Origin: a virus
Lineage: Duplodnaviria > Heunggongvirae > Uroviricota > Caudoviricetes
DNA length: 20,800 nucleotides
IMG/VR virus record: IMGVR_UViG_3300002641_000714
Strand: one strand, 5' to 3'
Shown here: one piece after another, positions 3,773 to 20,800 of the stretch
Numbering within the stretch: the first letter of the stretch is position 1
Layout of the letters: each line of letters begins with the position of its first letter
Position numbers and translations under genes: made by a program
The notes under the pieces: generated by a model
Databases searched by the model: none
What the model was told of the DNA's origin: nothing
The model's input: the letters and a program-made list of their open reading frames with translations, nothing else

Positions 3773-5845
3773 ATGGATATCTCAACAAGAACAGTTTTAA
3801 GAAGAACATTAGCAACTACCCATGACCATCTTGAATTAGATCATTTAGTTGATTATGAAGAAAAGTTTGTCGATGTTTCTATAGAATATAAAGCATATAA
3901 TGATTATGATACAACAGAAGTTCCGATTTTTGATCCGGAAAAAGCTGAAGAATTTAATAAAGAAAATTCAGCTAAAATGCGTCATACTCATTTACCATTT
4001 ACTGATTCAACTACAGAATTTAAAGAGAAAATGGAAAATATATTAAAATTTTATATAGATAATAATTTATGGCCGGCTAGTAATTTCTTTAAAGGTCCTA
4101 AAAAAGAGCCGGAACCGGAGCTTCCAACATATGATATTTCTGATAGTATAGATTCTGTTGATGCGGAATATTACGAAGAAAACAATCAAAAATATTATAA
4201 ATTACATATTGGTGAAGGTGATTCATATCCTCAAATTACTTTAGTTACCATTACAGATTCTAAGAATAATATAAATCCTGATAATATTGTTGAAGGAAAA
4301 TGCACTATTGTAGAAGAATCTGGAAGGCCTTCCAAGATTCTTAAATCTGCCGATATTAATCTTGATTATATTAGTAATGACGAATATCATGTATCAGGTT
4401 CTGTTAAAACAGAAGATGCTGAATATATATTTGACACGAATGTTCCATTGGTTGCGCATGAATAGGGCGGTGAACCAATTAATCCTTCTGATATTGAAGT
4501 TTATGAACCTACAGAGGAAGAAGCTAAATTAGCAGATGCTATTGTAGAAGCTTTAAAAAACGGTGAAGTTCCGGAAGGTGAAACCAGATTTGAATTAACT
4601 ACAACAAACACTACATATACACTTAATATAAACAACAGTGAAACATTGACTAATATTGTAATACCTGATATCAATAAAACATTAAAAATTAACGGTAATA
4701 TTAAATCCGGAACAAAAATAAATTATGTCACCGCGGCTAAAAAGACAATCTATTTGAATTCAACAAATGAACAACCTATTGATATTAATATTAATACAAA
4801 TGGTACAGTTTATGCTACCGGTAAGTATGATGATGTTCTTTTAAAAGGCCCGTCATTTACATCAAGCGGTCCTGCTTATGCAGAAATTTGTGGTAATGTA
4901 ATTATCGCGGATGATGTTGAAAAATCCGTATCAGTTCAGGCTAAATTTGTCGGTAATCCTAATACTATTATTTCTAATACAGAACAATCTATTACAGTTA
5001 CCGCTAGAAATGAAAATGCAAATATTGATATTGAATGTCCTAATTCAACAGTTACATTAGGCGGAGGTAATTACAATAATGTAGAAGCAAATGTTTCTGA
5101 AAATACGTTAAAGCTTACAACTTCTACATTTATTAAGAAATTAAAACTTAAACAAGGCAATATTCATATTAATAACGGTAAAAATATCATTAATGAACTT
5201 GTTGAAAATATTGAGTGCGATTATCAATATGCAGTTACATATAATACTGCTACTACTCTTCCATCACAACCTTCAGCATGTGAATACACAATGGAATCTG
5301 ATAGAACCGGTATTTGTGCATGGAGTCCGGCTGCATCAGGAGATACGGTAATCAATTTAAATAATCATAATATTATAGGAAATACTAATAGAACCGCAGC
5401 ATTATATCCTCGTTATAAAGCACATGTTGAAATTAATGCGGGTGACAGTGATGATCCGTCATTGAATGTTATTTCAAATAATCAAGCATATGCAGTATGG
5501 GGTAATGATCAAACTGTTATCACTATTAATGGCGGACATTTTATTGGTAATACTCACGTAATTTATTCATATAAAGGTGAAATTTATATTAATGGCGGTG
5601 AATTTGAATTAACCGGTGAATATGATAAAGATACTAAAGGACATGCTAAATTCTTATTAAATTGCTATGATCAAAACTTTACTGCCGGAACTGCAAAGAT
5701 TATTGTTAAAGGCGGTAAATTCCATAATTTTAATCCGGCAGAAGCATATAGTGAACCAACACAACCATATAACTATGTTGCAGAAGGTTATGAATCTGTT
5801 TGCATTGACGAAGCAAACCAAATTTTTGAAGTTAGAAAATTATAA
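3773..5845 (+). CDS. Large probable virion/surface protein with beta-rich, beta-helix-like C-terminal region, 690 aa, one TAG read as Gln
   Basis: Track ORFs 3761-4465 and 4646-5845 share a frame, and the gap has no stop other than TAG 4463-4465. There is a Pro/Glu linker (PKKEPEPELP) and INGG(H/E)F / VKGGKF strand repeats. ATG 3773 is preferred over TTG 3761. Confidence 0.7.
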
Positions 5846-5855
5846 TTAAAAACTA

Positions 5856-6809
5856 ATGGCGAAATATACAAATAAAAGTAAATTATTGGGCAAGATTGGC
5901 ACTGAAAATTATAGAGTGTCAAATTGCCCAGTACATTTACCTAAAGAAAATATTAAATTCTTTATGGCAATGCAAGATGCCGGAAACAAAGATCCGTTTT
6001 CTTCTGATACATGGGGAAACCAAATTACGCCTGATTGGAAAAAATCTATATATGAATCTATTATGAATAATGTTTCTAAAGAACTTAGAAAAACATTAAA
6101 TGAATCAGAAACATTTGATTTTAATTCAAATAATGCATTAAATGAAGGTTCTTGGGGTTATGAGCCGAATGAAGGAGATAGTGGATTAGATTGCATTGGT
6201 GAAACTAATGATTCTATTTGTGAATTAATTTATGACAAATGTAAAAGAATTTTAAATGGTCGTGGTGATAAATCACAAAAAGCCTGGGATGCAATTGCAG
6301 TTATAGAACATTTCTTTGATAAAATTCCAGATTTGAATACAATTGGCCGTGATAGAAATCCATATTACAAATATTATAGTTGGTGGCAACTTAAACAAGA
6401 TAAAGGAAAAGACATTGTTGATTTGTATCGTCAATGCATTGAAATATGCGAAAATGATCAATGGTATAATGAATGGGATAGTCCAGAAAAAATGGAAGAA
6501 TCTCTCCAAAAACGTCATGAAAATTTAAATAGATATTTAAGATTGAGAAAACGCGCTATTAATGAAGGAGAATGCGGTGGAGAATGCGGCGGTGTCGGAG
6601 GATCATATAATACTCCAATGAATACTGTTGGTATTGGTAATGTAGTTCCAGCACAAGGGGCAGCAATGACAGGTGCTCAATAGGCCTCTGATATGTTTAA
6701 TGGTTCTGGAGATCTTACCATCCCTAAATCTCAGAAGAAATCTAATAAAAAGAAATCTAAAAATTCAGGAATAATTTATTTTCCTTTAGCTACCAAGAAA
6801 GGTATTTAA
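5856..6809 (+). CDS. Hypothetical protein, probable head-associated, 317 aa, one TAG read as Gln
   Basis: Reading through TAG 6681-6683 adds ASDMFNGSGDL...KKGI up to TAA 6807-6809. It contains KKSIYESIM...TLNES, ALNEG and AINEG. Confidence 0.75.
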
Positions 6810-6842
6810 TAAATTAATAATTAAAATAAATTTATTAACCGG

Positions 6843-6864
6843 AATAACTAACATTAGTTATTTT
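6843..6864 (+). terminator. Weak possible terminator hairpin
   Basis: AATAACTA-acat-TAGTTATT followed by TT. The stem is short and AT-rich. Confidence 0.3.
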
Positions 6865-6904
6865 ATGGCAGGTTGAGAAAAAAGTTTTTTGAGTGTTTTT
6901 AATA

Positions 6905-6922
6905 TAAAATAAATAATAAAAT
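6905..6922 (+). promoter_or_regulatory. Putative late-promoter motif variant TAAAATAAATAATAAAAT
   Basis: Identical 18-mer at 6905 and 20601, upstream of ATGs at 6939 and 20654. Confidence 0.5.
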
Positions 6923-6938
6923 TATATTTTTAAACATA

Positions 6939-7289
6939 ATGGAACCAAGAGAAAGAAAAGAAAGAAGTGCATATCCAAATGGTCCAAAAGTCAGTGTAGC
7001 ATCAGTCGATGATGATAGCAATGCAATTGGTCAAGAATTTAATTTGGATAGTGATAATAATGATGAAGATTCTTATTTTGAAGGTGGTGGTTTGCAATTT
7101 GATGATGACGAAGCACCATCTACAGAAGATATCGAAAATGAAAAGAAAGAAGTTGAAAAAATGACAGATGAGGAAATTAAAGTTAAAGCACTTGGTCAGG
7201 CTGTCAATGTAGCAAAGTTAATGTCAAATGTTGGTGTTGACGATGTTATTGAAATCGCTAAGAAACTCGCAAAATTTATTAAAGGATAA
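6939..7289 (+). CDS. Acidic hypothetical protein with a C-terminal 43-aa domain paralogous to 7698-8108, 116 aa
   Basis: Clean ATG-TAA ORF with a D/E-rich tract. C-terminal KMTDEEIK...AKLMS...FIKG. Confidence 0.8.
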   Translation: MEPRERKERSAYPNGPKVSVASVDDDSNAIGQEFNLDSDNNDEDSYFEGGGLQFDDDEAPSTEDIENEKKEVEKMTDEEIKVKALGQAVNVAKLMSNVGVDDVIEIAKKLAKFIKG

Positions 7290-7290
7290 T

Positions 7291-7674
7291 ATGAAAAGTG
7301 ATAACAAAAAAGCTTTATATGAAAGTATTATGACTTCTGTAGCTAAAGAAGTCAAGAAAGCTTTAAATGAAGGTGAAGATAATAATTTTTATGTTGTTAC
7401 ATTCTGGACCGAACCAGAAACTTTAAATATTGAAAATGCTGTATGTGAATTTAGTGGTACATTAGATGAATGTAAAGAAAAAATTAATATACGTCTCAAT
7501 AATTTTAAAAAGCGTGGACTTAAATGTTATGAATTTGATAATAATTTAGGTTTTTATGGAATTTCTTATGGGGTTGGTGATAAATTGCATATAACATTAA
7601 ATAAAATAATGAGTAGCAAGCAGATGAAAAATTTCAATTATTTACGCAATGGAAAAATTAAAAATATCAGATAA
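7291..7674 (+). CDS. Hypothetical protein with N-terminal KKALYESIM...LNEG leader, 127 aa
   Basis: ATG at 7291 lies 1 nt after the upstream TAA, so it is preferred over the track start at 7228. Ends in TAA. Confidence 0.8.
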   Translation: MKSDNKKALYESIMTSVAKEVKKALNEGEDNNFYVVTFWTEPETLNIENAVCEFSGTLDECKEKINIRLNNFKKRGLKCYEFDNNLGFYGISYGVGDKLHITLNKIMSSKQMKNFNYLRNGKIKNIR

Positions 7675-7697: not shown

Positions 7698-8108
7698 ATG
7701 AATATTAATTTAAAGAAGTTTATAGAAAAACAAATGCTTCCACAAAAGCCTGTAAATGAAGGTGAAGACCTTAATGAAGATGATGCATTATTGGAAGATA
7801 TTCTTAATGAAGATGATGATGTTAATGAATCTACTGAAGACAAAAAGATGACGGAAGAAGAACTCAAAATCGAGTCTTTGAAAATTGCAACTAATATTGC
7901 AAAGTTGATGTCAGATGTTACTACAGATGATATTATTACTATTGCAGACAAAGTTTCTGGTTTTATTCGTGATCATCAAATTGATTCTGAAGAAACTAAA
8001 TCAGAAGACTCTGATATTGCAACAGATTTAGAATTACCATCTGATGAAGAAAGTTCTGAAGAAAAACCAGAAGAATCATCTGAAGAAAATAAAGAAGAAA
8101 CTAAATAA
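7698..8108 (+). CDS. Acidic hypothetical protein, paralog of 6939-7289, with multiple xNE motifs, 136 aa
   Basis: Clean ORF. It has VNEG, LNED, LNED and VNES, then KMTEEELK...AKLMS...FIRD. Confidence 0.8.
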   Translation: MNINLKKFIEKQMLPQKPVNEGEDLNEDDALLEDILNEDDDVNESTEDKKMTEEELKIESLKIATNIAKLMSDVTTDDIITIADKVSGFIRDHQIDSEETKSEDSDIATDLELPSDEESSEEKPEESSEENKEETK

Positions 8109-14706: not shown

Positions 14707-17520
14707 ATGATTTATAACAACTTAAATTTGCCTGCAACTCTTGTGCACAGTGTTAACGGCAAGAAATATACTTTAAATGGAAAATTATTGTCTATTAATG
14801 AATCTACTAAATTAGCTACTATGCAATTTGGTGATAAAACTAATTCAAATATTCCATTAAATGAAGTATACTTGAATGAAGGCGCTCTTAAAGATATGAT
14901 TAGGAAAACCGGAAAGAAACTTAAAGATGCAGCTGTTGCTACATGGAATAAAATTAATGATATCATTAAAATTGTCGGTGGTTTTCTTATTCCGGTAGAT
15001 GAATTCGGCAAAGAATTACGTGAATTTATTAATGCACCTATTAATTTACCGATGATGACATTACCGAGTGCAGTTAAACTTGTTCCCGCAGATGGTGCAT
15101 TAGGTATATGTGATGAATATGGTGCAAGAGTAAGAAATAATTCAACTGTTGATGAAGCCTTTGCACAATCAATGAAGGATGAAAAAGATGAAATTGAAAC
15201 ATATTGGACACGTGTAATGCGTGAATATGCTAATCCTGAAAATGAAAGTTTAACACTTTCAGAAACTGTTAAAATGGTTAATGAAACTTATTATCATCAA
15301 ACAATTGACAGTAAAGTTTTAAATGAAGCTGCAATTCCGTCATTAAATTCTCCATCCGGTTTATATGGTGAAAAACTTGGAACAAAAACATTGGTAAGAA
15401 CACTTATTACAAACTTAAAACACCAATTAAATCCTATTGAAAACCATGAAAGAACCGATGAAGACCTTATTGATCAATTACGTAATGGTACTAATTATGT
15501 AAAACCATTATTGATTTGGGGTGCTCCTGGTATTGGTAAAACCGCTATTCTTAAACAAGCTGCCAAATTCTTAAAAGAAGATGAAGGAATGAATCTTGAT
15601 ATGGTAACAGTTTGTTGCGGCGGTATTAAAACCGATGACTTTGAATTACCAGATACAGCAAGAAATATTATTGGCCGTAAGGTTGCAATTTCAACACCTA
15701 AAACATGGTTGCCTGTAATTAATATTGCAAGTTTAACTGATGAACAATTACTTGAAGCTAATGAATTCTATAACAGTGGTAAATTCCGTATTTTGGCACC
15801 AAATGATGAAACATTAAATAGAACATATAATGATAACGGTGAAACTAAAAAGGCATTTGACTGGAAATCAGTTGGTACTGGTGAAACATTTGACGGCGGC
15901 ATTATTTTCTTTGATGAGTTTGCCCGTTTACGTAATCTTAAAACAATGGATACTATGATGACATTTGTCGGTGATAGAACATATGTTGATATGCCATTGG
16001 CTACTAATTGGGTAACAGTTGCAGCTGCAAACCGTTTATCTGATGACCTTTTAAGTGAGGCTGACCCCGCATTCCACAGTTTATGGGATACTGCAAAACA
16101 ATCACGTTTTACACACTATACATATGCACCGTCAAAAGAAGAATGGCTTGAATGGGCTAGAGATGTTGATGATGATAACTATCAAAATGTTGATGAATTA
16201 ATTTGTAAATTTATTGAAAAGGCGCCAGATGGTGTTTGGTATGATGCACTGGATCTTGGATCTCGTGGTGAAGATGCCATTGAAGGTAGAAATGCCGCAG
16301 TTATTAAAGATATTTTAGCTAAATGGAAGGCAGGTACACCATTAACCGCTAAAGAATTAAAATTATTCGGTACCTATATATCAAATCCTGGTAACTCTAT
16401 TGTAGGTATGACTAATTATACATGGAATGCTCGTACATGGCACCAAAAAATTAATAAAGTTATGTTATCATTATTATTAAATGACTTCTTTAAAGGTGAT
16501 TTTAAAAAGTATGAAGCATGTTTTGATGAAACTACACGTGTTAAGAGTTTATATGGCGGTAAAGGCGCTAAAGAATATACTGCTAAGAATTTAAATATGG
16601 ATAAACTTACAACACAATTAAATAGCATTCCAGATGTATATTGGGATAAAATAACTGATGGTTATTGGCAAAAATTTGATGAAGATCAAAATTTCAGAAA
16701 TAATGATCGTTTGGCATTTTTCTTAGAATGTGTTCAATGGCTTATTCAATCTGAAACCGGCGGTGAAAATAGTGTTCCGTCTCAAGCATGGCACCAATAT
16801 AGAAATATTGATTCAATTATTGAAGATGTTGATGTTCGTACAATTTATGAAAAGGGACAAATGCACTCGGCAAAAGCTGCAAAGCTAGATAATATTTTAT
16901 GTAGTCAATCATCTGGTTATAAAAAGTTTAATGAACTTTCTTGGAAATCTGATCCAACATTATGGGGGGTTGTAGTTGAACGTATTTTAAAATCATTTAA
17001 TGACTATATTACAGCAGAAGATTTATTAACTGATATAAATTCTATTAACCGCAATTTGAAAAATATTGAAAAGGATCCAGAAAAATTCAGTGTAACACAA
17101 AAAGAAATTGATGATTATATAAATGCATATACTATTCAGTTCCTTGATGAATCCAAAAAACCGTTAAAACAAGTTCCAACACTATTAAGTGAAGAACTTG
17201 ATGATGAAGATGATAGAGAAAGAATTATTATTGTATTAAGAAATTCTGGTTGTGCTAGAAAATTGGCAAATATTGCATGCTGGTTTGCTAAACTCGGTAT
17301 TCAAATTAATAATAATTCACCAGTTGATATCGCTTTAGGTACTGGAGAATTTGATAAAAAATTGTCACTTAGAGCACTTCTTGGCACAGTAATTCAAAGT
17401 AATCCGGAGACAAAGAAATACTGGTTTGATGCTGCCAATACAGATGTAGTACAATATGATATACTTAAACCTGCATTAAATATTCTCAATAGTATGAAGA
17501 AAATAAAAAATGAAATATAA
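14707..17520 (+). CDS. AAA+ ATPase (MoxR/AAA_5-like) with long N- and C-terminal extensions, 937 aa
   Basis: Walker A LIWGAPGIGKT, Walker B IIFFDEFAR, sensor-1 VAAANR, SRF and a NARTW motif. The N-terminal extension contains SINES, YLNEG, VNET and VLNEA. No TAG. Confidence 0.88.
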   Translation: MIYNNLNLPATLVHSVNGKKYTLNGKLLSINESTKLATMQFGDKTNSNIPLNEVYLNEGALKDMIRKTGKKLKDAAVATWNKINDIIKIVGGFLIPVDEFGKELREFINAPINLPMMTLPSAVKLVPADGALGICDEYGARVRNNSTVDEAFAQSMKDEKDEIETYWTRVMREYANPENESLTLSETVKMVNETYYHQTIDSKVLNEAAIPSLNSPSGLYGEKLGTKTLVRTLITNLKHQLNPIENHERTDEDLIDQLRNGTNYVKPLLIWGAPGIGKTAILKQAAKFLKEDEGMNLDMVTVCCGGIKTDDFELPDTARNIIGRKVAISTPKTWLPVINIASLTDEQLLEANEFYNSGKFRILAPNDETLNRTYNDNGETKKAFDWKSVGTGETFDGGIIFFDEFARLRNLKTMDTMMTFVGDRTYVDMPLATNWVTVAAANRLSDDLLSEADPAFHSLWDTAKQSRFTHYTYAPSKEEWLEWARDVDDDNYQNVDELICKFIEKAPDGVWYDALDLGSRGEDAIEGRNAAVIKDILAKWKAGTPLTAKELKLFGTYISNPGNSIVGMTNYTWNARTWHQKINKVMLSLLLNDFFKGDFKKYEACFDETTRVKSLYGGKGAKEYTAKNLNMDKLTTQLNSIPDVYWDKITDGYWQKFDEDQNFRNNDRLAFFLECVQWLIQSETGGENSVPSQAWHQYRNIDSIIEDVDVRTIYEKGQMHSAKAAKLDNILCSQSSGYKKFNELSWKSDPTLWGVVVERILKSFNDYITAEDLLTDINSINRNLKNIEKDPEKFSVTQKEIDDYINAYTIQFLDESKKPLKQVPTLLSEELDDEDDRERIIIVLRNSGCARKLANIACWFAKLGIQINNNSPVDIALGTGEFDKKLSLRALLGTVIQSNPETKKYWFDAANTDVVQYDILKPALNILNSMKKIKNEI

Positions 17521-20653: not shown

Positions 20654-20800
20654 ATGAGAAGAAAATTAAATGAAGGTGAGGAATTTAATGAAGAATTATT
20701 GGATGGTGTAAAAATTTGCGTATCTGATATTCGTAATGATGATTCCGAAATGGACTGCAATGAACTTAGAGATATCTTTGTTAATGCAGGTGCTGAAGTA
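20654..20800 (+). CDS. Hypothetical protein, 3' partial, beginning MRRKLNEGEEFNEE
   Basis: Open from ATG 20654 to the window end (49 codons), with an N-terminal LNE motif. Confidence 0.65.
   Translation, partial: MRRKLNEGEEFNEELLDGVKICVSDIRNDDSEMDCNELRDIFVNAGAEV

What the first reader, a model, noticed from the sequence alone, without database searches (positions are those of the whole stretch)
6039..7374. Shared 23-aa segment ending in LNE in two otherwise unrelated proteins: candidate capsid-targeting and cleavage signal
Seen: KKSIYESIMNNVSKELRKTLNES (6039-6107) and KKALYESIMTSVAKEVKKALNEG (7306-7374) share 14 of 23 residues, with no evident similarity downstream. Known: T4 prohead protease gp21 cuts after (I/L)-x-E, and T4 internal proteins carry a short cleavable capsid-targeting sequence. 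Inference: this amphipathic helix is a portable tag that loads diverse cargo into the prohead and is then removed.
Basis: partly seen in the sequence, partly recalled or inferred. Interest (0 to 1): 0.72.

Follow-up and report, generated by a model that had tools for sequence, protein, structure and literature searches.

The report
Shared address-tag leader on megaphage proteins
The 23-residue match is one copy of a ~27-residue leader peptide, ending in Leu-Asn-Glu, that a Lak-type gut megaphage puts on many unrelated small proteins; it probably loads them into the phage head and is then cut off, as in phage T4, but this has not been shown experimentally.

Summary
Observation confirmed. The two segments sit at the stated coordinates, share 14 of 23 residues (17/33 extended, pairwise E=6e-8), and nothing else in the two proteins is alike.

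It is not a two-protein curiosity. 18 genes on this 204-kb contig carry the segment. In 16 it follows the start Met directly (M-K-[KR]-DNKKALYESIMTSVAKEVKKVLNE). The parts behind LNE are almost all unrelated.

A profile search finds 1,136 protein clusters with it, nearly always from residue 1. The phage is a Lak-type megaphage: T4-type capsid protein, TAG read as Gln.

Support for the capsid-targeting and cleavage reading:
- LNE is strictly conserved at the end of the capsid protein's N-terminal piece in 15 relatives.
- Relatives encode a T4 gp21-type protease that is itself full of [LIV]NE sites, and a leader gene lies next to it.
- Leader genes look late-expressed.

Against it: no protease gene on this fragment, 7 of 24 orthologues of protein B have LNK or LHK, and there are no virion data.

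Protein A is atypical. Its helix is internal, some orthologues lack it, and A ends in a copy of the capsid protein's N-terminal arm.

The scan found this leader before on other windows of this genome (e1-1837600, e1-1837599), and the capsid-like tail on another genome (e1-1680469).

The parts
5856..6809 (+). Gene of protein A (317 aa, one in-frame TAG at 6681-6683 read as Gln). It is composite: N-module, leader-like helix, helical middle domain, capsid-protein-like tail.
5856..6038 (+). N-module of A (aa 1-61). It is conserved in orthologues and also found on proteins with other middle domains (DUF285/PF03382 and another type).
6039..6104 (+). Leader-like helix of A (aa 62-83, KKSIYESIMNNVSKELRKTLNE). 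Candidate cut after Glu83 (6104|6105). Absent from orthologues P0133 and P0134.
6138..6146 (+). Second candidate cut site in A, ALNE|G (Glu97). Stand-alone homologues of the middle domain start MK.LKEFINE|GSWGY at this point.
6147..6566 (+). Middle domain of A (aa 98-237). It is the only confidently folded part (helical, pLDDT 74-91 over about aa 120-235) and has no fold match in the PDB. It ends at the third candidate site AINE|G (Glu237).
6567..6806 (+). C-module of A (aa 238-317). It is homologous to the N-terminal arm of the phage's own major capsid protein and has the same in-frame TAG codon. It is predicted disordered.
6939..7289 (+). Small acidic protein g006 (116 aa), first gene of the pair with B. 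It is a paralogue of g008 and has a late-promoter-like AT word upstream.
7291..7371 (+). Canonical N-terminal leader of protein B (aa 1-27, MKSDNKKALYESIMTSVAKEVKKALNE). Candidate cut after Glu27 (7371|7372). Predicted as a detached helix (aa 3-21) followed by a linker.
7372..7674 (+). Cargo domain of B (aa 28-127, plus stop). Compact alpha/beta fold (pLDDT 80-93) with no Pfam, PHROG or PDB match. It has 24 orthologues but is absent from four related megaphage records, including the syntenic site.
7698..8108 (+). Small acidic protein g008 (136 aa) with four [LV]NE sites in its first 45 residues. Paralogue of g006. Candidate prohead-core-type protease substrate.

Best explanation
The segment is a member of a ~24-27-residue leader family of Lak-type megaphages: M-K-[KR]-DNKKALYESIMTSVAKEVKKVLNE, a helix followed by a variable linker.

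It most likely works like the T4 capsid-targeting sequence, in four steps:
1. The genes are expressed late.
2. The helix docks the protein onto the scaffolding core while the prohead assembles.
3. A T4 gp21-type (Peptidase S77) prohead protease then cuts after the Glu of LNE, the same site it uses on the major capsid protein.
4. The freed cargo stays in the head and is presumably delivered to the host with the DNA.

Protein B is a plain example: leader, linker, then a 100-residue domain.

Protein A is a composite, polyprotein-like relative. It has an 83-residue N-terminal address that contains a diverged copy of the helix, a helical domain bracketed by LNE|G and INE|G, and a tail copied from the capsid protein's N-terminal arm.

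Shown: the tag exists, is portable, is selected at the peptide level, ends in a motif shared with the capsid protein, and sits on late-type genes.

Inferred: docking, cleavage, packaging and delivery.
For: Portability:
- 18 leader genes lie on the contig, 16 of them strictly N-terminal.
- Among the 18 cargo parts only 3 pairs are related.
- A profile search of 1.84 billion representatives gives 1,136 clusters at E<=1e-3 and 170 at E<=1e-10. Nearly all matches start at residue 1.
- Of 214 database members in hand, 206 are N-terminal and 206 end in LNE. Their 153 cargos of 60 aa or more fall into 91 unlinked families.

Selection on the peptide:
- Nucleotide diversity is 0.067, 0.053 and 0.221 at codon positions 1, 2 and 3. 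It jumps to 0.64 right after LNE.

Same site on the capsid protein:
- The contig encodes a Pfam Gp23-type capsid protein.
- LNE is invariant at the end of its ~50-residue N-terminal piece in 15 relatives of 47-82% identity.
- This parallels T4 gp23, which is cut after LTE65, as read from the T4 record.

Protease:
- Peptidase_S77 scores over the Pfam cut-off in 3 of 4 large relatives.
- In the closest one (G003) the 593-aa protease-plus-acidic-tail protein carries many [LIV]NE sites, and the next gene starts with the leader.

Motif enrichment:
- [LIV]NE is enriched in non-leader proteins, 115 observed against 72.6 expected, z=4.7.
- It is dense in the neighbours of A and B.

Late class:
- AATAAATA lies within 70 nt upstream of 11/18 leader genes, against 13/131 TAG-free genes. 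11/18 leader genes carry in-frame TAG.

Structure and domain boundaries:
- In the B model the leader is a detached helix ahead of a well-folded domain.
- In A and in its 716-aa counterpart in G003, [LIV]NE falls at each module boundary.

T4 precedent:
- The CTS is a short N-terminal propeptide that binds the prohead core and is removed by gp21 (PMC7411985; PMC3012670).
Against: - No Peptidase_S77 match on this contig. It is a fragment (CheckV 41%), but this is still untested for this phage.
- One complete relative that has the leader (G002) gave no S77 match.
- One relative with the protease and the LNE capsid site (G004) has no leader match.
- 7 of 24 orthologues of B have LNK or LHK in place of LNE, so cleavage is not obligatory for that protein.
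- In A the helix is internal, and two orthologues lack it.
- There is no sequence similarity to the T4 CTS, and the leader is more than twice as long.
- The hydrophobic moment is not significantly above shuffles.
- The N-terminal piece of the capsid protein could not be aligned to T4 gp23 by profile methods, so the equivalence of the cut sites is positional only.
- No virion proteomics exists for any Lak-type phage that I could find.
Confidence: 0.6

Rival explanations
1. The helix is an address or assembly tag for some destination other than the capsid interior. Candidates are another virion part, a phage-made complex such as the neighbouring MoxR/vWA/metallopeptidase set, or a host structure. 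Alternatively it is a common oligomerisation helix. LNE would then be just a conserved helix end, or a cut site used for activation rather than for packaging.
For: Portability, N-terminal position and peptide-level selection fit any protein-level address. The Glu is lost in 7 of 24 orthologues of B. The helix is dispensable in two A orthologues. There is no similarity to the T4 CTS.
Against: The same LNE is invariant at the end of the capsid protein's N-terminal piece. It is also dense in the protease-scaffold protein of a relative, whose next gene bears the leader. Late-gene features are shared with structural genes. A's tail copies the capsid protein's arm. All of this points to the head.
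Confidence: 0.22
2. The shared stretch is a 5' gene cassette (late promoter, ribosome-binding region and first codons) kept alike by duplication and gene conversion because it eases expression or cassette exchange. The peptide itself would have no role.
For: Overall DNA similarity among the canonical copies is high: third-position diversity is only 0.22. Many copies share an upstream AAATAAATATATTG word. The genes cluster at 69-73 kb and 88-94 kb. B is present or absent as a unit between two paralogous genes.
Against: Third positions vary about four times more than first and second positions. There are 701 synonymous codon differences between pairs. The peptide is kept in relatives whose capsid proteins are only about 58-60% identical and in over 1,000 clusters. 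Conservation stops exactly at LNE rather than at a DNA landmark.
Confidence: 0.08
3. The match between A and B is chance or low-complexity similarity between Lys/Glu-rich helices of an AT-rich genome.
For: The genome is 27.8% G+C and its proteins are rich in K, N, E and I.
Against: Pairwise E=6e-8 with composition adjustment. There are 18 hits at E<=2e-6 against a next-best of 0.13 on the same proteome. Register and N-terminal position are conserved.
Confidence: 0.01

Closest known systems
T4 capsid-targeting sequence (CTS) of internal proteins IPI, IPII, IPIII and Alt, removed by prohead protease gp21
   Same: A short N-terminal peptide shared by otherwise unrelated, fast-evolving accessory proteins. 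It ends in a (L/I)-x-E motif that also ends the propeptide of a gp23-type capsid protein. Relatives encode a gp21-type (S77) protease. The genes sit in variable clusters and are of the late class.
   Different: There is no detectable sequence similarity: T4 has MKTYQEFIAE, about 10 residues, while this leader has 24-27 residues and a fixed LNE. The scale is about 18 genes on 40% of one genome and over 1,000 clusters overall, against four proteins in T4. It also occurs internally or in polyprotein-like proteins such as A. Function is untested here.
Propeptides of head and ejection proteins of phiKZ-like giant phages (SPN3US gp245, phiKZ gp175 proteases; A/S/G-x-E motif)
   Same: Many head-internal proteins of a giant phage are trimmed after a Glu-ending tripeptide by a T4-related prohead protease. 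Propeptides can be long, and proteins can be cut at several sites, as proposed for A.
   Different: Those propeptides share only the cut motif, not a common portable leader sequence. The motif there is AXE-like (PMC7411985), not LNE.
Encapsulation peptides of bacterial microcompartments and cargo-loading peptides of encapsulins
   Same: A short, portable helix plus a flexible linker directs unrelated cargo into a protein shell. Encapsulin shells have the same HK97 fold as phage capsids.
   Different: These are analogies of principle only. They are not cleaved, are not phage systems and have no sequence relation.
Lak-type megaphage DUF285/PF03382 repeat proteins ending in a copy of the capsid protein's N-terminal segment (earlier scan note e1-1680469)
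   Same: Protein A has the same C-terminal module and the same N-terminal module as those proteins (P0135, P0137; G003 716-aa protein).
   Different: A carries a different, helical middle domain in place of the DUF285 repeats.

Membership tests
T4-type capsid-targeting sequence (functional class) | Lies at the extreme N-terminus of the precursor | tested here: met
   Met for B and for 16 of 18 copies on the contig, and for 206 of 214 database members. Not met for A, where the helix starts at residue 62, or for g107, where ATA replaces ATG.
T4-type capsid-targeting sequence (functional class) | Shared by proteins that are otherwise unrelated | tested here: met
   Only 3 related pairs among 18 cargos. 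91 unlinked families among 153 database cargos. A against B: nothing beyond the leader.
T4-type capsid-targeting sequence (functional class) | Ends in the prohead protease's cut motif, (L/I)-x-E, which also ends the capsid protein's propeptide | tested here: met
   LNE in all 18 local copies and in 206 of 214 database copies. LNE is invariant at the end of the capsid protein's N-piece in 15 relatives. Exception: LNK or LHK in 7 of 24 orthologues of B.
T4-type capsid-targeting sequence (functional class) | The same phage encodes a gp21-type (Peptidase S77) prohead protease | tested here: inconclusive
   No PF03420 match on this 204-kb fragment. Present over the cut-off in 3 of 4 large relatives, including the closest, G003.
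T4-type capsid-targeting sequence (functional class) | Sequence similarity to the T4 CTS (MKTYQEFIAE) | tested here: not met
   T4 ipI, ipII and ipIII N-termini were read from the T4 record. They share neither length nor spacing with the leader. So it is not a homologue by sequence, at most a functional analogue.
T4-type capsid-targeting sequence (functional class) | The precursor is carried into the prohead, and the leader is removed there | not testable with these tools
   Needs virion proteomics or a protease assay. No such data were found in the literature searches.
Lak-megaphage leader family 2 (as defined in this scan) | Matches the profile M-K-x-DNKKALYESIMTSVAKEVKK-x-LNE | tested here: met
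   B: E=2.5e-18, a canonical member. A: E=2e-18 to the two-sequence HMM, but only 63% identical to the consensus peptide (E=7e-6), so a diverged member.
phiKZ-like head propeptides | Cut motif A/S/G-x-E without a shared leader sequence | tested here: not met
   The motif here is [LIV]-N-E, and a long shared leader exists.

The most novel reading that the evidence does not exclude
Lak-type megaphages load a very large, fast-changing set of effector proteins into the capsid by two combinable devices. There are hundreds of unrelated families across the clade and dozens per genome. The first device is the cleavable LNE leader. The second, in A-type proteins, is a polyprotein layout: several cargo domains separated by LNE sites, bracketed by an ~85-residue N-terminal address and a C-terminal copy of the capsid protein's own N-terminal arm. 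That copy would plug into the shell lattice or compete for the arm's binding partner. The leader would then be a sequence handle for listing the injected proteome of uncultivated megaphages.
Probability: 0.25. Interest if true: 0.85.

Novelty: new variant of a known kind. Interest (0 to 1): 0.68.

Why it matters
Lak megaphages are among the largest known phages. They are common in human and animal guts, are uncultivated, and most of their genes have no assigned function.

If the leader is a capsid address, a simple profile search names a large share of these orphan genes as packaged, probably injected, proteins. This would be the megaphage counterpart of T4's anti-restriction internal proteins, on a scale about two orders of magnitude larger.

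It would also explain why such genes come and go as cassettes. Protein B, for example, is inserted between two paralogous genes here and is absent from close relatives.

The idea is directly testable. One can search gut metaproteomes for peptides that begin right after LNE, or run a protease co-expression assay.

The capsid-arm copy at the end of protein A hints at a second way of tying cargo to the shell, one not described for T4.

Tried and rejected
- PHROG and Pfam scans of A, B and their neighbours gave nothing useful for A or B.
- Pfam on 80 leader-bearing database proteins: 78 without any family.
- phmmer of the capsid protein against PDB sequences: no hit.
- hhalign of the Lak capsid-protein alignment against T4 gp23 aligned only the C-terminal half, so the cut sites could not be put in register by alignment.
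- AlphaFold models of B and A, then Foldseek against the PDB: no match at E<=0.001 for either cargo.
- Hydrophobic-moment test of amphipathicity: not significant.
- PF03420 on the window's own contig: absent.
I used the syntenic block of relative G003 instead.
- Idea that A and B are full-length paralogues: rejected.
- Idea that the internal leaders of A or g107 are separate genes with their own ATG: rejected. There is no start codon: ATT in A, conserved across orthologues, and ATA in g107.
- Literature: no paper links a capsid-targeting sequence to Lak phages or megaphages.

Full report
**1. What is at the coordinates**

The window is the first 20.8 kb of a single 204,228-bp viral contig of 27.8% G+C. 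Reading TAG as a sense codon raises the coverage by ORFs of 100 aa or more from 143 kb to 193 kb.

Protein A is 5856-6809 (+), 317 aa, with one in-frame TAG. Protein B is 7291-7674 (+), 127 aa. B is the second gene of a pair with a 116-aa acidic protein at 6939-7289.

BLASTP extends the match to 17/33 (E=6e-8) and finds nothing else of note between the proteins. In B the segment follows the start Met after four residues. In A it begins at residue 62.

**2. It is a family, not a pair**

An HMM of the two segments, run over all code-15 open frames of the contig, hits 18 frames (E 2e-6 to 1e-18). The next best hit has E=0.13.
- In 16 of the 18 the peptide is the N-terminus: M-K-[KR]-DNKKALYESIMTSVAKEVKKVLNE.
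- The genes cluster at 69.4-73.2 kb and 88.2-93.8 kb, with singles elsewhere.
- Behind LNE the sequences diverge at once. All-against-all BLASTP of the 18 cargo parts links only three pairs.

The two internal cases are A and g107. In g107 the expected ATG reads ATA behind a 156-residue upstream part. In A the corresponding codon is ATT, and the arrangement is conserved in orthologues.

**3. Breadth**

The capsid protein's nearest named relatives are Prevotella phages Lak-A, Lak-B and Lak-C at 61% identity.

The consensus peptide finds 13, 12 and 7 copies in three related records of 380-673 kb, and none in a fourth.

A profile of 16 local leaders, run against 1.84 billion cluster representatives, finds 1,136 clusters at E<=1e-3 and 170 at E<=1e-10. 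Nearly all matches start at residue 1. The weak end includes at least one false positive, P0153.

Of 214 database members I could inspect:
- 206 are N-terminal and 206 end in LNE.
- 153 have cargos of 60 aa or more, which fall into 91 BLASTP-unlinked families.
- Pfam recognises almost none of the 80 members scanned.

**4. The peptide, not just the DNA, is selected**

Among 12 canonical copies, nucleotide diversity is 0.067, 0.053 and 0.221 at codon positions 1, 2 and 3. It rises to 0.64 in the 15 nt after LNE. Pairs differ by 701 synonymous codon changes in all. Some recent duplication or gene conversion is still likely.

**5. Link to the head**

*Capsid protein.* The contig encodes a Pfam Gp23-type major capsid protein at 57,433-59,352 (-). 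In it and in 15 relatives of 47-82% identity, the N-terminal ~50 residues end in an invariant LNE. A variable linker and the conserved arm follow. A second [IL]-x-E-[AS]-W site lies near residue 17. T4 gp23 is cut after LTE65, as read from the T4 record. The parallel is positional only, because profile alignment covered just the C-terminal half.

*Protease.* No Peptidase_S77 gene lies on this fragment, which CheckV rates 41% complete. Three of four large relatives have one over Pfam's cut-off. In the closest, G003 (capsid protein 81% identical), the gene encodes 593 aa: a protease domain plus an acidic tail with many [LIV]NE sites. The very next gene starts MKQDNKKLYESIMSSVAKEVKKSINE.

*Motif enrichment.* [LIV]NE is enriched in the non-leader proteome, 115 observed against 72.6 expected, z=4.7. 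It is dense in neighbours of A and B: four sites in the first 45 residues of g008, five in the N-extension of the AAA+ ATPase, and six in the protein that starts at 20,654.

*Timing.* The T4-late-promoter-like word AATAAATA lies within 70 nt upstream of 11/18 leader genes, 29/72 other TAG-bearing genes and 13/131 TAG-free genes. 11/18 leader genes contain TAG.

**6. Protein B**

With 24 orthologues as alignment, AlphaFold2 gives a low-confidence helix (residues 3-21), a coil to residue 32, and a confident alpha/beta domain at 33-125. That domain has no PDB match.

B's cargo is absent from four related records. At the syntenic site of G003, the orthologues of g006 and g008 are adjacent. g006 and g008 are paralogues (E=7e-16). 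So B is an accessory cassette lying between them.

Seven of B's 24 orthologues read LNK or LHK instead of LNE. If the protease needs Glu, those are not cut. This weakens 'obligatory removal' but not targeting.

**7. Protein A is a composite**

Alignment of homologues shows four parts:
- **N-module (aa 1-61).** It recurs on proteins with other middle domains.
- **Leader-like helix.** It ends in LNE|S, is diverged, and is missing in P0133 and P0134.
- **Helical domain.** It is preceded by ALNE|G. Stand-alone forms of this domain begin MK.LKEFINE|GSWGY.
- **Tail after AINE|G.**

Only aa ~110-239 fold confidently.

The tail (aa 210-317) is homologous to capsid-protein residues 34-141 (E=9e-12). 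The match includes the cut-site position and the same in-frame TAG. A is the only other protein on the contig that resembles the capsid protein.

In G003 the same slot holds a 716-aa protein with the same N-module, helix and tail. Its cargos differ, and they are joined by an FDFNSLLNE|S junction. [LIV]NE at every module boundary is what a polyprotein processed by the head protease would look like. This is inference.

**8. Comparison with the known**

The T4 CTS is a 10-20-residue N-terminal propeptide. It binds the prohead core and is removed by gp21 (PMC7411985). It is the only conserved part of otherwise diverse internal proteins (PMC3012670).

The present leader behaves the same in every respect that sequence can show. 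It is not similar in sequence (T4 has MKTYQEFIAE), it is longer, and it is used on a vastly larger scale. I therefore class it as a new variant of a known kind, and as a functional analogue whose mechanism is unproven.

I found no paper that describes it.

**9. Earlier notes of this scan**

- e1-1837600 and e1-1837599 described this leader, and a second leader (MKNYKQILEAINRGIKFALDD...), on other windows of this genome.
- e1-5435112 noted the LNE clusters in this window.
- e1-1680469 noted the capsid-like tail on DUF285 proteins of another genome.

My tests reproduce these independently. They add the conservation of the capsid-protein site, the protease-adjacent leader gene, the codon-position test, the exhaustive count, the LNK orthologues, and the modular anatomy of A.

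**10. Verdict**

- Observation: confirmed.
- Portable tag: shown.
- Capsid targeting and cleavage: the best explanation (about 0.6), but circumstantial.

Noticed in passing
window 6939-7289 and 7698-8108: The two small acidic proteins flanking B are paralogues (45% identity over 77 aa, E=7e-16). They share a C-terminal helix-rich part. The second has four [LV]NE sites in its acidic N-terminal half. They may be prohead-core proteins in the manner of T4 gp67/gp68. In relative G003 they are adjacent, without B between them.
   Followed up: partly
window 6681-6683 and G000 59,059-59,061 (capsid gene, minus strand): The in-frame TAG of protein A and that of the capsid protein fall at the same aligned residue (AMTGAQ-Q-A). 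Several database orthologues of A are truncated exactly there, presumably by standard-code gene calling. Others have a normal sense codon at that position. This is direct support for TAG=Gln in late genes.
   Followed up: partly
alignment A1; G000 60,462-64,301: The helix variant in A's orthologues (..ESIVFAISKGIKNALNES) looks intermediate between this leader and the other leader family of the genome (MKNYKQILEAINRGIKFALDDF). The two families may therefore share an origin. Judged by eye only.
   Followed up: no
G000 88,241-89,062 (L034:42-863): g107 has a leader copy at residues 157-181 in which ATA stands where the other copies have ATG. It is in frame with a 156-residue upstream part. This is either a recent gene fusion or a decaying start codon.
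   Followed up: partly
window 3773-5845 against L048:3439-3741: The 690-aa protein upstream of A has only a 100-aa counterpart (similar N-terminus) at the syntenic site of relative G003. This slot is also variable. The protein has no Pfam or PHROG match.
   Followed up: no
window 14707-17520 and G000 20,654-22,714: The N-terminal 210 residues of the MoxR-type AAA+ ATPase carry five [LIV]NE sites. The protein that starts at 20,654 begins MRRKLNE|G and has six sites. If LNE is the head-protease site, these would also be processed.
   Followed up: no
P0147, P0148: Some database proteins carry two leader copies in one chain, one at each end or in tandem. These may be gene-call read-throughs or true double-tagged or polyprotein forms.
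   Followed up: no
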